From assembly GCF_048403405.1 (NCBI RefSeq), contig NZ_CP183129.1: a stretch of 64,000 nucleotides of DNA; one strand, given 5' to 3'. The notes beneath the pieces are model-generated. The model did not search any database. It worked only from the letters and a program-made list of their open reading frames with translations, and was not told the DNA's origin. A program made the position numbers and the translations under genes. The stretch comes from Escherichia coli (GTDB lineage: Bacteria; Pseudomonadota; Gammaproteobacteria; Enterobacterales; Enterobacteriaceae). How positions within the stretch are numbered: position 1 is the first letter of the stretch; each line of letters begins with the position of its first letter. Shown in pieces: positions 4,675-11,260 of this stretch.

Positions 4675-6069
4675 ATGCCATTTAAAAAACTCTCCCGACG
4701 CACCTTCCTGACGGCAAGCTCCGCGCTTGCCTTCCTCCATACCCCTTTCGCCCGTGCACTTCCCGCCCGACAAAGCGTTAACATTAACGACTACAACCCA
4801 CACGACTGGATCGCCTCATTTAAACAAGCCTTCGGCGAAGGGCAAACGGTCGTCGTGCCTGCCGGATTGGTTTGCGACAATATCAACACCGGCATCTTCA
4901 TTCCTGCAGGTAAAACGTTACACATCCTTGGAAGCCTGCGCGGCAACGGCAGAGGGCGATTTGTCTTACAGGACAGCAGCCAGGTGACAGGGGAGGAGGG
5001 TGGCAGTATGCATAACATCACCCTGGATGTGCGTGGCTCTGACTGCACCATCAAAGGGCTGACGATGAGCGGCTTTGGTCCGGTAACGCAGATTTATATC
5101 GGCGGCAAAAACAAACGAGTAATGCGTAACCTCTCCATCGATAACCTGACCGTTAGCCACGCTAATTACGCCATCTTACGCCAGGGATTTCATAACCAGA
5201 TTATCGGTGCCAACATCACCAACTGTAAATTTAGTGATTTACAGGGCGACGCCATTGAATGGAACGTGGCGATTAACGACCGTGATATTTTGATATCTGA
5301 CCATGTCATCGAGCGCATCAACTGTACCAACGGCAAAATCAACTGGGGTATCGGCATAGGCCTTGCGGGAAGTACCTACGATAATAACTACCCGGAAGAC
5401 CAGGCAGTGAAAAACTTTGTCGTGGCGAATATCACGGGATCGGATTGTCGGCAGTTGATCCATGTTGAAAATGGTAAACATTTTGTTATTCGTAATATCA
5501 AAGCCCGCAATATCACGCCGGATTTCAGCAAGAAAGCAGGCATTGATAACGCGACAGTTGCTATTTACGGTTGTGACAATTTCGTGATTGATAATATTGA
5601 AATGATTAATAGCGCTGGGATGTTAATCGGCTATGGGGTAATTAAAGGCAAATATCTCTCAATACCGCAAAATTTCCGAGTGAATAATATTCAAATGGAT
5701 AACACCCATCTTGCTTATAAATTGCGCGGTATCCAAATCTCTGCCGGGAATGCTGTCTCCTTTGTGGCGCTGACTAACATTGAGATGAAGCGTGCGTCGC
5801 TGGAGTTACACAACAAACCGCAACATCTTTTTATGCGAAATATCAAGGTGATGCAGGAATCCTCAGTTGGACCCGCATTGAGCATGAACTTCGACATGCG
5901 CAAAGACGTTCGCGGCGTCTTTATGGCGAAAAAAGAAACACTGCTGTCACTTGCAAATGTTCATGCGGTGAATGAAAAAGGGCAAAGCTCCGTCGATATC
6001 GACAGAGTTAATCACCACATTGTTAATGTGGAAAAGATTAACTTTAGATTGCCAGAACGGAGGGAGTAG
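4675..6069 (+). CDS. wcaM: Colanic acid biosynthesis protein WcaM (signal peptide, beta-helix-like)
   Basis: 464 aa; N-terminal Tat-like signal ([13 protein letters not shown]); last gene of wca cluster by synteny. Confidence 0.8.
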
Positions 6070-6226
6070 ATTTGCGACCATTCATAAACTTACTGGATAT
6101 AATGTTCTAAAAGATTATAATCCTCACACTAACTGTTAAAGCTGGGGCTGGGCAGCATTGACTACTCAGGGAAGGTACTCATCTTTATCTTGTGTTTCTT
6201 ACGTAACAACCAGACTAAAGTGATTT

Positions 6227-7222
6227 ATGAACGATAACGTTTTGCTCATAGGAGCTTCCGGATTCGTAGGAACCCGACTACTTGAAACGGCAATTGCTGA
6301 CTTTAATATCAAGAACCTGGACAAACAGCAGAGCCACTTTTATCCAGAAATCACACAGATTGGCGATGTTCGTGATCAACAGGCACTCGACCAGGCGTTA
6401 GCCGGTTTTGACACTGTTGTACTACTGGCAGCGGAACACCGCGATGACGTCAGCCCTACTTCTCTCTATTATGATGTCAACGTTCAGGGTACCCGCAATG
6501 TGCTGGCGGCCATGGAAAAAAATGGCGTTAAAAATATCATCTTTACCAGTTCCGTTGCTGTTTATGGTTTGAACAAACACAACCCTGACGAAAACCATCC
6601 ACACGATCCTTTCAACCACTACGGCAAAAGTAAGTGGCAGGCAGAGGAAGTGCTGCGTGAATGGTATAACAAAGCACCAACAGAACGTTCATTAACTATC
6701 ATCCGTCCTACCGTTATCTTCGGTGAACGCAACCGCGGTAACGTCTATAACTTGCTGAAACAGATCGCTGGCGGCAAGTTTATGATGGTGGGCGCAGGGA
6801 CTAACTATAAGTCCATGGCTTATGTTGGAAACATTGTTGAGTTTATCAAGTACAAACTGAAGAATGTTGCCGCAGGTTATGAGGTTTATAACTACGTTGA
6901 TAAGCCAGACCTGAACATGAACCAGTTGGTTGCTGAAGTTGAACAAAGCCTGAACAAAAAGATCCCTTCTATGCACTTGCCTTACCCACTAGGAATGCTG
7001 GGTGGATATTGCTTTGATATCCTGAGCAAAATTACGGGCAAAAAATACGCTGTCAGCTCAGTGCGCGTGAAAAAATTCTGCGCAACAACACAGTTTGACG
7101 CAACGAAAGTGCATTCTTCAGGTTTTGTGGCACCGTATACGCTGTCGCAAGGTCTGGATCGAACACTGCAGTATGAATTCGTTCATGCCAAAAAAGACGA
7201 CATAACGTTTGTTTCTGAGTAA
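6227..7222 (+). CDS. gne: UDP-N-acetylglucosamine 4-epimerase (SDR family)
   Basis: 331 aa; Rossmann GASGFVG and catalytic YGKSK motifs; sits between wcaM and galF as gne does in O157/O55-type loci. Confidence 0.75.
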   Translation: MNDNVLLIGASGFVGTRLLETAIADFNIKNLDKQQSHFYPEITQIGDVRDQQALDQALAGFDTVVLLAAEHRDDVSPTSLYYDVNVQGTRNVLAAMEKNGVKNIIFTSSVAVYGLNKHNPDENHPHDPFNHYGKSKWQAEEVLREWYNKAPTERSLTIIRPTVIFGERNRGNVYNLLKQIAGGKFMMVGAGTNYKSMAYVGNIVEFIKYKLKNVAAGYEVYNYVDKPDLNMNQLVAEVEQSLNKKIPSMHLPYPLGMLGGYCFDILSKITGKKYAVSSVRVKKFCATTQFDATKVHSSGFVAPYTLSQGLDRTLQYEFVHAKKDDITFVSE

Positions 7223-7464
7223 TGCAGACGAGTCAGAGAAATAAGGACCAGGTTGGACTACGATTATTCGGAAAGAGGTACTGATTAAATTATCAGTATG
7301 CGGAATTCCGAGTAATCCGAGTAACCCAGATGCTGATGGTGTGTAGTGTTATTCTAAGGTTTAAGCAAAGTTATGCGGAACTAAGCTTTGGTATATAGCC
7401 ATAACGTTTGGCTAACCTATGGCAATAATTTACGCACTATCAGCCACTTAGAGGTAGGAAAAGA

Positions 7465-8358
7465 ATGACGAATTTAAAAGCAGTTATACCGGTAGCAGGT
7501 CTTGGGATGCATATGTTGCCTGCCACTAAGGCGATTCCCAAAGAGATGCTACCGATCGTCGACAAGCCAATGATTCAGTACATTGTTGACGAGATTGTGG
7601 CTGCAGGGATCAAAGAAATCCTCCTGGTAACTCACGCGTCCAAGAACGCAGTCGAAAACCACTTCGACACCTCTTATGAATTAGAATCTCTCCTTGAACA
7701 GCGCGTGAAGCGTCAACTGCTGGCGGAAGTACAGTCTATCTGTCCGCCGGGCGTGACCATTATGAACGTGCGTCAGGGCGAACCTTTAGGTTTAGGCCAC
7801 TCCATTTTGTGTGCACGACCCGCCATTGGTGACAACCCATTTGTCGTGGTATTGCCGGACGTTGTGATCGACGACGCCAGTGCCGACCCGCTGCGCTACA
7901 ACCTTGCTGCCATGATTGCACGTTTCAACGAAACGGGCCGCAGCCAGGTGCTGGCAAAACGTATGCCGGGTGACCTCTCTGAATACTCCGTCATTCAGAC
8001 TAAAGAGCCGCTGGATCGTGAAGGTAAAGTCAGCCGTATTGTTGAATTCATAGAAAAGCCGGATCAGCCGCAGACGCTGGACTCAGACATCATGGCCGTT
8101 GGTCGATATGTGCTTTCTGCCGATATTTGGCCGGAACTTGAACGCACTCAGCCTGGTGCATGGGGGCGTATTCAGCTGACTGATGCCATTGCCGAACTGG
8201 CGAAAAAACAGTCCGTTGATGCCATGCTGATGACTGGTGACAGCTATGACTGCGGTAAAAAAATGGGTTATATGCAGGCGTTTGTGAAGTATGGACTGCG
8301 CAACCTCAAAGAAGGGGCGAAGTTCCGCAAAGGCATTGAGAAACTGTTAAGCGAATAA
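7465..8358 (+). CDS. galF: UTP-glucose-1-phosphate uridylyltransferase subunit GalF
   Basis: 297 aa; recalled GalF sequence ([34 protein letters not shown]); 5' flank of O-antigen cluster. Confidence 0.9.
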
Positions 8359-8618
8359 TGAAAATCTGACCGAATGTGACGGTTGGCAAGGAAACTATAA
8401 CAGCAGTGAAGATTCGTGGCGAAAGTAATTTGTTGCGAATATTCCTGCCGTTATTTTGTATAAACAATCAGAATAACAAATAGTTAGCAATAGGCTTTTC
8501 GTCAAAGTTTTCCTGGATTTTCCTTGTTTCCAGAACGGATTGGTAAGACAATTAGCGTTTGAGTTTCGAGGGAGATGCAGCAATGTCTCTCAGTAACAGT
8601 ACGCAATATCAATGAGTT

Positions 8619-8657
8619 CAGTGCACTGGTAGCTGTTAAGCCAGGGGCGGTAGCGTG
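8619..8657 (+). promoter_or_regulatory. JUMPstart element with ops site (GGCGGTAGC), RfaH-dependent antitermination signal
   Basis: Sequence cagtgcactggtagctgttaagccaggggcggtagcgtg between galF and first O-antigen gene; ops core GGCGGTAGC visible. Confidence 0.6.
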
Positions 8658-8667
8658 GATTGATGGA

Positions 8668-9489
8668 ATGAAAAATAAGTGCCCACGAATTGCAGTAATA
8701 ATGTCGGTTTATATTAATGATAAATTTAATGAGTTTAAAGAGGCTTTTGACAGTATTATTAATCAAACATACTCTAACTTTGTTTTCTTTATTTATGCCG
8801 ATGGCAAGATAAATCCAGATATTGAAAGTTTTTTGCAAAATTATAATTCGCAACATGTGATTTTCATTAGAAGTGAAAAAAATAAGGGATTAGCTTATGC
8901 TTTGAATAAATTAATATCAGTGGCGCTAGTTAATAATGAATTTGATTTTATTGCCAGAATGGATGCTGATGATATAAGTTTAGAAGATAGATTTCAACGA
9001 CAAATAGATTTTTTTATGGCTAACCCTGAGTTAGATGTTGTTGGTGGGTTGTGTCAAGAGTTTGGTGGTGAGTCAGCAAGAGAAAAATGCAAGATCTATT
9101 TTACAGATGAAGCCATTAAAAACAATGCCTTTAAAAAATGTCCTTTCGTTCATCCAACCGTGATGTTTAAATCGTCTGTATTTAATAACGGGATGCGATA
9201 CCCTGAAAATCAGCCACTGACAGAAGATATGTGCTTATGGCTCGAGTTAATATCCGCGAATAAAAAGTTTGCAAATATTGACTCCGTTCTTCTAAAGTAC
9301 AGAATTAATGAGCAGACGCTAAAAAGAAGAAGAGGTTTGAATAAGGCTGTAACCGAATTATCCACAAGATTGTATTACGCCAAGAAACTTAAAATGCTTA
9401 GCGTACGGAATTTGTTATATATATTAATCCATTTTGGTGTCAGAGTCCTTTCTTCAAATATATTTAAACTTGTACATAAGTTAAATTAA
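8668..9489 (+). CDS. Glycosyltransferase family 2 (O-antigen cluster)
   Basis: ORF 8575..9489 trimmed to first ATG after JUMPstart; GT2-like N-terminus (IAVIMSVYIN, DxD-like MDADD); low GC. Confidence 0.6.
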   Translation: MKNKCPRIAVIMSVYINDKFNEFKEAFDSIINQTYSNFVFFIYADGKINPDIESFLQNYNSQHVIFIRSEKNKGLAYALNKLISVALVNNEFDFIARMDADDISLEDRFQRQIDFFMANPELDVVGGLCQEFGGESAREKCKIYFTDEAIKNNAFKKCPFVHPTVMFKSSVFNNGMRYPENQPLTEDMCLWLELISANKKFANIDSVLLKYRINEQTLKRRRGLNKAVTELSTRLYYAKKLKMLSVRNLLYILIHFGVRVLSSNIFKLVHKLN

Positions 9490-9490
9490 A

Positions 9491-11257
9491 ATGAATAAAA
9501 CTGTTTATACATATGATGTATGGGATACTATTTTAAAACGTCATTGTTTACCATCATATACGTTAGAGGTTTCGTTGTACTGGCTACTTTTGTATCTTGG
9601 AAAACCTGAGAAACATAAGGATGTGTATAAAAAAGTAAAAGCACTGGAGAGTGATTTTTTTAATCGAAAAGAAGAATATTTTATTGAAGAGCTTATTGTT
9701 GGGATATTAATTGAAAATAATTTAATGAATGGATTTTGCAATAACTCTGTGACTGCTGCTTGGGAACAAATATATTATTTCGTAGAGAGAAATTGTACAT
9801 ATAAAAATAAAGAGGTTATAGAGTTAATTGGGAGTGACTATGGGGACAAATTATTTATTTCTGATTTTTATACTGACTCCAGTTTCATAAAGAAATTGCT
9901 ACACCACCACCAAGTATCGGTTTTAGATGGTGTGACGTCAGCTGAGTATGGCGTCAGTAAGCATATGGGTTCATTGTATGAAAAAATAGAACTATTGAAG
10001 CAAAGGAAATGGATCCATACTGGAGATAATGAATTAGCTGATATAAAAATGGCAAAGCGTGCAGGTGCCCAAGTTAGACTTATAAAATCCAAAAAGAAGA
10101 AAATAAATAAGTTAAAAATAAAAAATGACTATGAGCGGTTAGCATTTATTATTTTGTCCTTTAGCCTGTTTATATTAAAAACTTCCAGAAAGAAAAAGTG
10201 CAATAAGATCTACTTTTTTACAAGGGAGGGGGTTTTTTTCAAAAAAAACTTTGATCTTCTACTAAACCAAATACCTAACATATTCCCATCTATAACTACG
10301 GAAATATTGCCAATCAGTCGAGTAGCCAGCTTAGCATTGAAGTTTAATGAGTCTGATGAATTTTTAGGATTTAATGATGCATTAACCCAGTATGGCTATG
10401 GAGTGTCTACGTTTCTTAGTTTCTTTCATCTTGATGATTGTTACTCCGAGCTCACAACAAAGTATCATGATGTAAATGATTTATTATCTCACAGAAATGA
10501 TCCTTTGGTAAAACAACTAATAAAAAGTATAGAGGATAAAAAAAAACGAACAGAAAATTTTCTTACATCCATTGAGTTCGATTCTGAGCCAAGTATCATC
10601 GTGGATATTGGTTGGCGGGGTAGCATCCAAGATAATTTAATGTCGCGGAAAAATAATTATATTCAACATGGATGTTATCTCGGATTGTTTGATTTTTACC
10701 CAGGCCAGTCAGGTCAGAATAAATCATCTGTAATTTTTGATAACAACAGATTTAGACAAAAATGGACCATGAAAGGTGTAGCTTTTATGGAGACGGTTTT
10801 CAATGCTTTGGACGGAAGTGTTGTCGATTATGTAAACAATAAACCGAAAAGAAAAGAAAATTACGCTGAGATAGAAAATTCAAAACATTTAATAGTTATG
10901 CAAGATGCTATCATTGAGGAATTTATGAATCTATCTATTATGTTAAAAGAGGGAAAGTTAAATATCAATGATATTGAAAGATTAGCTATTGAAAGTTACA
11001 AAAAAATAGTAACTAACCCATCTAAAGAAATAGCTGATTTTTATGTTGGCAGTATCCAAAATGAAAGCTTCGGTTTGAATGATTTTATCGACAAAGAATT
11101 TAACATTAGCGCAGTAGATGTTTTCCGAAGTTTTTTTTCTAAAAGTAAAAGAAATGAAATAAGAATAAAATTGCATAGAAATGGATGGCGTGAGTCGATA
11201 CTTAAATCCTCTAAAGTATCGCTGAGCGCAAAATTATGTTCACTTTTAATTAGATAA
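9491..11257 (+). CDS. Hypothetical 588-aa O-antigen cluster protein with possible HAD-like N-terminal domain
   Basis: Long low-GC ORF tightly packed between two GT2 genes; tentative HAD motifs (YDVWDTIL, HTGDNELAD); no confident family assignment. Confidence 0.45.
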   Translation: MNKTVYTYDVWDTILKRHCLPSYTLEVSLYWLLLYLGKPEKHKDVYKKVKALESDFFNRKEEYFIEELIVGILIENNLMNGFCNNSVTAAWEQIYYFVERNCTYKNKEVIELIGSDYGDKLFISDFYTDSSFIKKLLHHHQVSVLDGVTSAEYGVSKHMGSLYEKIELLKQRKWIHTGDNELADIKMAKRAGAQVRLIKSKKKKINKLKIKNDYERLAFIILSFSLFILKTSRKKKCNKIYFFTREGVFFKKNFDLLLNQIPNIFPSITTEILPISRVASLALKFNESDEFLGFNDALTQYGYGVSTFLSFFHLDDCYSELTTKYHDVNDLLSHRNDPLVKQLIKSIEDKKKRTENFLTSIEFDSEPSIIVDIGWRGSIQDNLMSRKNNYIQHGCYLGLFDFYPGQSGQNKSSVIFDNNRFRQKWTMKGVAFMETVFNALDGSVVDYVNNKPKRKENYAEIENSKHLIVMQDAIIEEFMNLSIMLKEGKLNINDIERLAIESYKKIVTNPSKEIADFYVGSIQNESFGLNDFIDKEFNISAVDVFRSFFSKSKRNEIRIKLHRNGWRESILKSSKVSLSAKLCSLLIR

Positions 11258-11260
11258 AAT

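What the first reader, a model, noticed from the sequence alone, without database searches (positions are those of the whole stretch)
9491..11257. Orphan 588-aa protein inside the O-antigen cluster with tentative HAD-like N-terminus
This is the largest gene of the cluster and is neither a glycosyltransferase nor a Wzx/Wzy by visible motifs. The N-terminal about 200 aa contain HAD-like elements (DVWDT near the N-terminus, GDNELAD). It could add a non-sugar substituent such as a phosphate-linked group to the O-unit.
Basis: inference. Interest (0 to 1): 0.4.

Follow-up and report, generated by a model that had tools for sequence, protein, structure and literature searches.

The report
O153 O-antigen ribofuranose transferase gene
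The "orphan" gene encodes a two-domain enzyme predicted to add the sugar ribofuranose to the E. coli O153 surface antigen from the metabolite PRPP and then remove the leftover phosphate; this enzyme type was first described in 2022, so the gene is an ordinary but still unannotated member of a known family.

The parts
9491..11257 (+). Complete ORF, 588 aa: predicted bipartite PRPP-dependent beta-ribofuranosyltransferase (PRP-gPRT) of the O153 O-antigen cluster
9491..10090 (+). N-terminal HAD-type phosphoribose phosphatase (PRP) domain, residues ~1-200
9515..9529 (+). HAD motif I, D9-V-W-D12-T13. D9 is the predicted nucleophile. The spacing is DxxDT, as in 7SHG and Bcs3 (DIFDT), not the canonical DxDxT.
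   Evidence: D9 in 53/54, D12 in 53/54, T13 in 54/54 homologues. Aligned to FDIFDT of 7SHG and Bcs3. An invariable Asp is required for dephosphorylation in the family (PMC11294581).
9860..9865 (+). HAD motif II, S124-D125
   Evidence: Invariant in 54/54. Aligned to VSDFY of 7SHG.
9959..9961 (+). HAD motif III, K157
   Evidence: Invariant in 54/54.
10022..10042 (+). HAD motif IV, G178-D-N-E-L-A-D184
   Evidence: G178, D179 and D184 invariant, N180 in 53/54. Aligned to GDNEISD of 7SHG.
10118..11254 (+). C-terminal glycan phosphoribosyltransferase (gPRT / CriT-like) domain with helical bundles, residues ~210-588
   Evidence: Aligned to the gPRT half of 7SHG and to CriT of Bcs3. A profile of this domain alone finds 9,691 representative proteins at E<=1e-3. 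No Pfam or NCBIfam model covers it.
10220..10231 (+). T244-R245-E246-G247, equivalent to Bcs3 CriT S678-R679-D680 (pyrophosphate pocket and ribose-positioning acid)
   Evidence: R245 in 54/54, E246 in 51/54 with D in 2. Profile alignment YFfTREG versus Bcs3 YFISRDG. Residue roles from PMC10299916.
10316..10321 (+). S276-R277, equivalent to Bcs3 CriT S707-R708 (phosphate binding and ribose positioning)
   Evidence: Invariant in 54/54. Alignment. Roles.
10601..10636 (+). V371-D-I-G-W-R-G-S-I-Q-D-N382, the family's most conserved motif. D372 is equivalent to Bcs3 E818, and the following loop corresponds to the 5-phosphate-binding loop 821-825.
   Evidence: V371, D372, G374 and W375 invariant. Aligned to DVGWKGTIQDNL of 7SHG and VEFWGRGYTQD of Bcs3. 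Roles.
10814..10819 (+). G442-S443, equivalent to Bcs3 CriT S884 (pyrophosphate pocket)
   Evidence: S443 in 52/54 with T in 2. Alignment nGSv versus Bcs3 YDSI. Role.
6227..7222 (+). gnu (GlcNAc-PP-Und 4-epimerase), context: makes GalNAc the first sugar of the O-unit
   Evidence: Epimerase Pfam hits. RefSeq product name in SMS-3-5.
8575..9489 (+). GT2 glycosyltransferase, context: a partner in O-unit assembly
   Evidence: PF00535 E=2.9e-17.
11261..12133 (+). GT2 glycosyltransferase, context
   Evidence: PF00535 E=3.7e-20.
12133..13310 (+). wzy (O-antigen polymerase), split here into two ORFs by a 1-nt deletion
   Evidence: TIGR04370 hits on both halves. Single 392-aa ORF in SMS-3-5. Deletion mapped.
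13261..14286 (+). GT4 (retaining) glycosyltransferase, context
   Evidence: PF00534 E=5.6e-27.
14267..15445 (+). wzx flippase. It carries exact matches to published O153 wzx primers at 14531-14551 and 15252-15271.
   Evidence: PF01943. Primer matches giving the expected 741-bp amplicon.

Best explanation
The gene encodes the ribofuranosyltransferase of the E. coli O153 O-antigen, a bipartite PRP-gPRT enzyme. Inferred from characterised homologues: in the cytoplasm the C-terminal gPRT domain binds PRPP (5-phospho-alpha-D-ribosyl-1-diphosphate) with Mg2+ and transfers ribose-5-phosphate, with inversion, to the non-reducing sugar of the undecaprenyl-diphosphate-linked O-unit built by WecA/Gnu, the two GT2 enzymes and the GT4 enzyme. 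The N-terminal HAD phosphatase, with D9 as nucleophile, then removes the 5-phosphate and leaves a beta-D-ribofuranose residue. Wzx flips the completed unit and Wzy polymerises it. This explains two things: why no NDP-ribose pathway gene is present, and why the O153 cluster appears to have one glycosyltransferase too few. Shown here: the ORF, the fold, the full-length homology, the conserved catalytic residues, the genomic context and the O153 typing. Inferred: the donor, the two-step chemistry, and the acceptor. From my memory of the published O153 structure the linkage is probably beta-Ribf-(1->4)-beta-Gal. I could not check that structure with these tools.
Against: There is no biochemical or genetic test of this protein. 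Identity to the solved prototype is only about 21-22%, and all characterised members come from ABC-transporter-dependent O-antigens or capsules, not from Wzx/Wzy O-unit assembly. Two different clusters have been called O153 in the literature: Iguchi's equals O178, and DebRoy's KJ755551 is distinct. It is therefore not certain that the 'one GT fewer' statement of the review refers to this cluster. I could not retrieve the O153 repeat-unit structure, so the acceptor assignment rests on memory. HAD motif I is DxxDT rather than the canonical DxDxT, although the characterised homologues share this spacing.
Confidence: 0.88

Rival explanations
1. One reading: a HAD-based enzyme that decorates the O-unit with a non-sugar, phosphate-linked substituent (for example glycerol phosphate or phosphoethanolamine), with a C-terminal domain of unknown role.
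For: The HAD fold and motifs are real. Relatives of this cluster do carry a phosphoglycerol-transferase-like gene, so phosphate-linked decoration may occur in this lineage.
Against: The whole protein, including the 380-residue C-terminal domain, is homologous to ribofuranosyltransferases. The PRPP-site residues are conserved. In characterised members the HAD domain removes a phosphate rather than installing one. The cluster has no CDP-glycerol or similar donor gene. The OpgB-like gene is a separate ORF.
Confidence: 0.02
2. It is a family member with a different product: a processive or dual-linkage Ribf polymerase like Salmonella STM0726, or an enzyme whose Ribf-5-phosphate is retained in the mature antigen.
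For: STM0726 has the same two-domain architecture and adds several Ribf residues. Acceptor specificity cannot be read from sequence.
Against: The cluster is a Wzx/Wzy repeat-unit system with its own polymerase, and STM0726 needs a partner protein and an ABC-transporter pathway. All HAD catalytic motifs are intact, which argues for dephosphorylation. The gene count (three GTs plus this enzyme plus WecA) fits one Ribf per five-sugar unit, in line with 'one GT fewer'.
Confidence: 0.05
3. The domain is gPRT-like but uses another donor, or the protein is a decaying, non-functional remnant in this lineage.
For: Identity to characterised enzymes is low (21-25%). This window's cluster carries other lesions: a wzy frameshift and an IS1-truncated downstream gene. 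One genome (TBE6) has this gene itself broken.
Against: The ORF is intact and >=99.7% identical in 77 genomes from diverse hosts. Every catalytic or ligand-binding position tested is conserved. The predicted structure is highly confident. Synteny is conserved across Escherichia and Salmonella.
Confidence: 0.05

Closest known systems
Polysaccharide ribofuranosyltransferase of Thermobacillus composti (PDB 7SHG; Kelly et al. 2022, Nat Chem Biol 18:530, cited in PMC11127046)
   Different: Only about 21-22% identical. The E. coli protein is about 50 residues shorter. It comes from a Gram-negative Wzx/Wzy O-antigen locus, not a Firmicute.
Klebsiella pneumoniae O4 ORF5 and O7 ORF7 ribofuranosyltransferases (biochemical prototypes; PMC11231755)
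   Same: Same family as described in the literature. They are PRPP-dependent, add a single beta-Ribf per repeat unit of an O-antigen, and the 5-phosphate is removed by the fused PRP.
   Different: They work in ABC-transporter-dependent pathways, where the whole polymer is made in the cytoplasm. The E. coli enzyme would complete a single lipid-linked O-unit before Wzx flipping. I did not compare the sequences directly.
[quoted passage not shown]
   Different: Bcs3 is a 1,215-residue multi-enzyme with extra CroT and SH3b domains, and its acceptor is ribitol phosphate. Bcs3 R712 has no equivalent here (L281).
Salmonella STM0726 (T1 antigen Ribf polymerase) and Campylobacter jejuni Cj1432 middle and C-terminal domains
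   Same: Same PRP+gPRT chemistry shown in vitro with PRPP. Mutating the PRP catalytic Asp traps the Ribf-5-P product.
   Different: STM0726 is processive and needs the partner STM0725. Cj1432 is fused to a GT4 domain. Both act in transporter-dependent systems.
Three-component undP-Ribf system (Citrobacter youngae ORF15 PRP-PPPRS, MATE flippase, GT-C; PMC11127046)
   Same: It also draws ribose from PRPP and uses a HAD-type PRP domain.
   Different: That system makes undecaprenyl-phosphate-Ribf with a UbiA-type membrane enzyme and adds alpha-Ribf in the periplasm. This window has no UbiA-like, MATE or GT-C gene in the cluster, and the C-terminal domain is soluble and gPRT-type.
Type I phosphoribosyltransferases of nucleotide metabolism (HGPRT, OPRT, UPRT)
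   Same: According to the Bcs3 study, the CriT catalytic core resembles their alpha/beta PRPP-binding fold and places two acidic residues like their DD motif.
   Different: They form N-glycosidic bonds to bases. No such structure appeared among the top fold matches here. This is a resemblance reported in the literature, not membership.

Membership tests
Bipartite PRPP-dependent glycan ribofuranosyltransferases (PRP-gPRT; prototype 7SHG / K. pneumoniae O4, O7) | [quoted passage not shown] | tested here: met
   HAD fold for residues ~1-200. D9 aligns with the first Asp of FDIFDT in 7SHG and Bcs3 and is present in 53/54 homologues. Motifs II-IV are invariant.
Bipartite PRPP-dependent glycan ribofuranosyltransferases (PRP-gPRT; prototype 7SHG / K. 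pneumoniae O4, O7) | C-terminal gPRT domain with the family-specific fold, on the same polypeptide | tested here: met
Bipartite PRPP-dependent glycan ribofuranosyltransferases (PRP-gPRT; prototype 7SHG / K. pneumoniae O4, O7) | Conserved PRPP-binding and catalytic residues of the transferase domain, as defined in Bcs3 CriT | tested here: met
   T244-R245-E246, S276-R277, D372 with the GWRGS loop, and S443 correspond to S678-R679-D680, S707-R708, E818 with loop 821-825, and S884. Bcs3 R712 is not conserved, here or in 7SHG.
Bipartite PRPP-dependent glycan ribofuranosyltransferases (PRP-gPRT; prototype 7SHG / K. pneumoniae O4, O7) | Encoded in a locus for a glycan that contains beta-linked ribofuranose | tested here: met
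   The cluster is typed O153 by exact primer matches. O153 is listed among Ribf-containing serogroups with a missing GT. The anomeric configuration and linkage are not retrievable here. The ambiguity over two 'O153' clusters is noted.
Bipartite PRPP-dependent glycan ribofuranosyltransferases (PRP-gPRT; prototype 7SHG / K. pneumoniae O4, O7) | Uses PRPP as donor and yields Ribf-5-P, then Ribf | not testable with these tools
   Needs an enzyme assay. It is inferred from homologues.
HAD superfamily phosphatases (Pfam PF00702 / PF13419) | Rossmann-like HAD core with motifs I-IV | tested here: met
   The fold matches many HAD structures, and homologues carry PF00702/PF13419. This sequence itself is below Pfam detection, and motif I is DxxDT rather than DxDxT.
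Leloir glycosyltransferases (GT-A / GT-B folds) | GT-A or GT-B Rossmann fold with nucleotide-sugar binding motifs | tested here: not met
   No GT Pfam or NCBIfam hit. No GT-A or GT-B structure among the listed fold matches.
Three-component undP-Ribf pathway (PRP-PPPRS / MATE / GT-C) | UbiA-type membrane PPPRS domain fused to PRP, plus a MATE flippase and a GT-C transferase | tested here: not met
   The C-terminal domain is gPRT-type, not UbiA. No MATE or GT-C gene is found among the cluster ORFs. System description.

The most novel reading that the evidence does not exclude
This protein and its 588-602-aa enterobacterial relatives (Salmonella, Proteus, Xenorhabdus; 40-87% identical to each other, about 24% to the main ~640-aa clade) may form an uncharacterised subclade of the Ribf-transferase family. 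It would be adapted to Wzx/Wzy O-unit assembly, acting on a membrane-anchored Und-PP-oligosaccharide and producing the terminal Ribf that Wzy then uses as the polymerisation site. On this reading the gene has never been explicitly assigned, so it would close the 'missing glycosyltransferase' noted for O153 and, by extension, for other Ribf-containing Wzy-dependent serogroups. I could not read the 2022 founding paper, whose survey may already list it.
Probability: 0.4. Interest if true: 0.35.

Novelty: new member of a known kind. Interest (0 to 1): 0.25.

Why it matters
It turns a "hypothetical protein" present in every O153-type E. coli genome into a specific, testable enzyme. It also supplies the missing transferase and the missing sugar donor (PRPP) that a 2019 review of E. 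coli O-antigen genetics flagged as unexplained for O153. More generally, the gPRT domain has no Pfam or NCBIfam model even though about 9,700 representative proteins carry it. Ribofuranose in a glycan therefore cannot be predicted by standard annotation, and a domain model would improve structure prediction from O-antigen and capsule loci. The enzyme could also serve as a part for glyco-engineering. None of this changes how the family is understood to work.

Tried and rejected
Pfam and NCBIfam scans of the protein gave nothing significant. The only Pfam hit was DUF6642 (E=0.0028, 17.8 bits against a cut-off of 27), which I discarded.

Distant blastn against 5,426 E. coli genomes found only the same 77 O153-type copies. 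I therefore could not test whether the other Ribf-containing serogroups (O5, O20, O54, O105, O114, O178, O183, O185) carry homologues.

The founding paper (Kelly et al. 2022) and Senchenkova et al. 2005 (wbaM of S. boydii 10 / E. coli O183) are not held. I could not check whether this protein is already listed, or how WbaM relates to it.

O178 and O19 wzx primers do not match the window. That rejects my first guess of an O178-type cluster and the historical O19 label of strain SMS-3-5.

I could not retrieve the O153 repeat-unit structure from the held library. Searches linking Salmonella O52 to O153 found nothing useful.

A 582-aa no-Pfam ORF in the second polysaccharide module of metagenome contig L003 is unrelated to this protein.

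Full report
**Observation**

The window is an E. coli chromosomal segment running from the colanic-acid genes (wcaJ to wcaM) through gnu and galF, then a low-GC block (about 30-35% GC against 50-55% in the flanks), IS1, gnd, ugd, wzz and his. The ORF at 9491..11257 (+) is real, 588 codons long, and starts two bases after the stop of the upstream GT2 gene. It is the largest gene of the cluster. The same gene, at >=99.7% DNA identity, occurs once in 77 of 5,426 complete E. coli genomes, including SMS-3-5. In all of them it is annotated "hypothetical protein".

**Which O-antigen**

Published O153 wzx primers (Ludwig et al. 2020, supplementary Table 1F, expected amplicon 741 bp) match the window exactly at 14531-14551 and 15252-15271. 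That is 741 bp apart, inside the wzx ORF. O178 and O19 wzx primers do not match. One matching genome is named CE-O153H30.

One caveat applies. Two different clusters have been deposited as "O153". Iguchi's is 99.9% identical to O178. DebRoy's KJ755551 is distinct and was PCR-validated on clinical O153 isolates.

**What the protein is**

Pfam and NCBIfam give nothing significant. A plain phmmer search of PDB sequences gives a single hit, 7SHG "ribofuranosyl transferase", at E=4.3e-14, aligned over query residues 7-534.

A database search returned 113 homologues. Close ones (40-87% identity, 588-602 aa) come from Escherichia-like metagenome contigs, Salmonella enterica, Proteus mirabilis and Xenorhabdus. 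A large set at about 24% identity is about 640 aa long, and many of these carry the HAD Pfam domains PF00702 and PF13419 at the N-terminus.

A profile of 54 of these proteins hits 7SHG at E=7e-111 over its full length. It hits residues 381-995 of H. influenzae Bcs3 (the CrpP phosphatase plus the CriT ribofuranosyltransferase) at E=8e-48, followed by ordinary HAD phosphatases for the N-terminal 200 positions only.

An AlphaFold2 model built on that alignment is confident (mean pLDDT 92.9, pTM 0.92). Its best structural matches are:

No GT-A or GT-B structure appears among the listed matches.

**Residues**

In the HAD half, D9, D12, T13 (motif I), S124-D125 (motif II), K157 (motif III) and G178-D179...D184 (motif IV) are invariant or nearly invariant in the 54-sequence alignment. 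Motif I is DxxDT, with W or F at +2, rather than DxDxT. 7SHG and Bcs3 (DIFDT) share this spacing.

In the transferase half the conserved positions are T244-R245-E246-G247, S276-R277, V371-D-I-G-W-R-G-S-I-Q-D-N382 and G442-S443. Through the profile alignment they correspond to Bcs3 S678-R679-D680, S707-R708, E818 plus the 821-825 loop, and S884. In the Bcs3 crystal structure these residues hold the two phosphate groups and the ribose ring of PRPP, and the D680A and E818A replacements clearly reduced Bcs3 activity.

**How it most likely works**

The mechanism is inferred from characterised homologues. The literature held here describes the family as two-step, non-Leloir glycosyltransferases. A gPRT domain transfers beta-linked ribofuranose-5-phosphate from PRPP to a sugar acceptor, and a HAD-family PRP domain then removes the 5-phosphate. 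This was shown in vitro for K. pneumoniae O4 ORF5 and O7 ORF7, Salmonella STM0726 (where a D14A PRP mutant traps the Ribf-5-P product), Bcs3 and C. jejuni Cj1432.

Applied to this locus, the steps would be:
1. WecA and Gnu make Und-PP-GalNAc.
2. The two inverting GT2 enzymes and the retaining GT4 enzyme add three hexoses.
3. This enzyme caps the unit with beta-Ribf from PRPP.
4. Wzx flips the unit and Wzy polymerises it.

From memory, the O153 repeat (Ratnayake et al. 1994) is ->2)-beta-D-Ribf-(1->4)-beta-D-Galp-(1->4)-alpha-D-GlcpNAc-(1->4)-beta-D-Galp-(1->3)-alpha-D-GalpNAc-(1->. That would fit two inverting GTs, one retaining GT, a GalNAc start and a beta-Ribf cap exactly. I could not retrieve this structure with the tools, so the acceptor assignment is a lead and not a result.

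**Fit with what was unexplained**

The 2019 review of E. coli O-antigens lists O153 among the nine Ribf-containing serogroups. It states that no nucleotide-activated Ribf or synthesis gene is known. It lists O153 (with O5 and O178) among clusters with "one less glycosyltransferase than expected" and "no obvious explanation". A PRPP-dependent transferase that escapes GT-A/GT-B detection accounts for both points.

**Conservation of context**

Relatives at 87%, 65% and 62% protein identity sit in the same gene order, GT2-this gene-GT2-wzy-GT4-wzx. They are found in metagenome contigs and in a Salmonella enterica galF-gnd O-antigen locus. One member of the Salmonella protein cluster is from serovar 52:z:z39. 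The Proteus homologue was deposited as "Gt4" of an O-antigen cluster, and four Proteus O-antigens are reported to contain Ribf.

**Size of the family**

A profile of the gPRT domain alone finds 9,691 representative proteins (50%-identity clusters) at E<=1e-3 and 1,946 at E<=1e-30. Among the best 150 listed, most are 640-690 aa with the domain starting near residue 220-260 (HAD+gPRT). There are also stand-alone forms of 390-470 aa and multidomain proteins of up to 2,240 aa. No Pfam or NCBIfam model hit this domain in the query, and the Pfam domains precomputed for its homologues are HAD families or GT2 families.

The HAD call is correct. The proposed function (a non-sugar, phosphate-linked substituent; "not a glycosyltransferase") is not supported. 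The protein is a glycosyltransferase of the PRPP-dependent kind, and phosphate appears only as a transient intermediate.

**Novelty**

The enzyme class has been known since 2022 and several members have been characterised. This protein is an unannotated and, as far as I could find, uncharacterised member in a Wzx/Wzy context. All characterised members I could read about come from ABC-transporter-dependent O-antigens or capsules. I could not read the founding paper, whose bioinformatic survey may already include it. I rate it a new member of a known kind, interest 0.25.

**Side observations**

- The window's wzy carries a private 1-nt deletion.
- IS1 truncates an OpgB-like phosphoglycerol-transferase gene at the 3' end of the cluster. 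The gene is intact in a related cluster.
- One E. coli genome has the Ribf-transferase gene itself broken.

Noticed in passing
window 12133-13310 (deletion at ~12834): The O-antigen polymerase gene wzy is split into two ORFs (12133..12849 and 12861..13310) by loss of a single T relative to SMS-3-5. All 60 listed E. coli genomes with this cluster (of 79 matching) have the extra base and an intact 392-aa Wzy. This strain is either unable to polymerise its O-antigen (semi-rough) or the base is a sequencing error.
   Followed up: partly
window 15468-16672; L005:7157-9373; L002:11516-13355: An IS1 element (~15904-16672, InsA/InsB) sits right after a 146-aa ORF (15468..15908) that matches only the N-terminal membrane part of phosphoglycerol transferase I (OpgB/MdoB family). 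A related cluster (87% identical Ribf-transferase) has an intact 738-aa gene there (NF009027, E=5e-154, below the equivalog cut-off). About 75 E. coli genomes share the IS1 junction. Ancestral relatives of this O-antigen may therefore have carried a periplasmically added glycerol-phosphate-type decoration that O153-type E. coli has lost.
   Followed up: partly
L002 (E. coli TBE6, NZ_CP154401.1) 6001-7763: In this one genome the Ribf-transferase gene is itself broken into two annotated ORFs (1,763 instead of 1,767 nt). The cluster is further rearranged: IS1 lies upstream of the first GT, gnu is absent, and wzy is annotated as a 671-aa fusion.
   Followed up: no
window 9515-9529 and family alignment A1: HAD motif I in this whole family is D-x-[W/F]-D-T, so the second acidic residue is at +3 instead of the canonical +2 (DxDxT). 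This feature is shared with 7SHG and Bcs3 CrpP. Its mechanistic meaning was not examined.
   Followed up: no
window 14267-15445 versus L001 14778-15479: RefSeq annotates wzx of SMS-3-5 as a partial pseudogene 'missing C-terminus', although its sequence is identical to the intact 392-aa ORF in the window. Pfam Polysacc_synt covers only residues 10-238. The C-terminal third of this Wzx is atypical.
   Followed up: no
L003 (metagenome contig ERZ23499452 scaffold_310) 10819-15448: This contig carries two tandem polysaccharide modules, each headed by a wcaM fragment and a galF-like gene, separated by a transposase remnant. The second module includes a 582-aa ORF without Pfam hits that is unrelated to the Ribf-transferase.
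   Followed up: partly
literature (PMC4732683, PMC7403468) versus window 14531-15271: Two different gene clusters circulate as 'O153'. Iguchi's reference is 99.9% identical to O178. DebRoy's KJ755551 is distinct. The window matches the primers of the DebRoy/Ludwig lineage. Strain SMS-3-5, historically called O19:H34 (my recollection), carries this O153-type cluster and does not match O19 wzx primers.
   Followed up: partly
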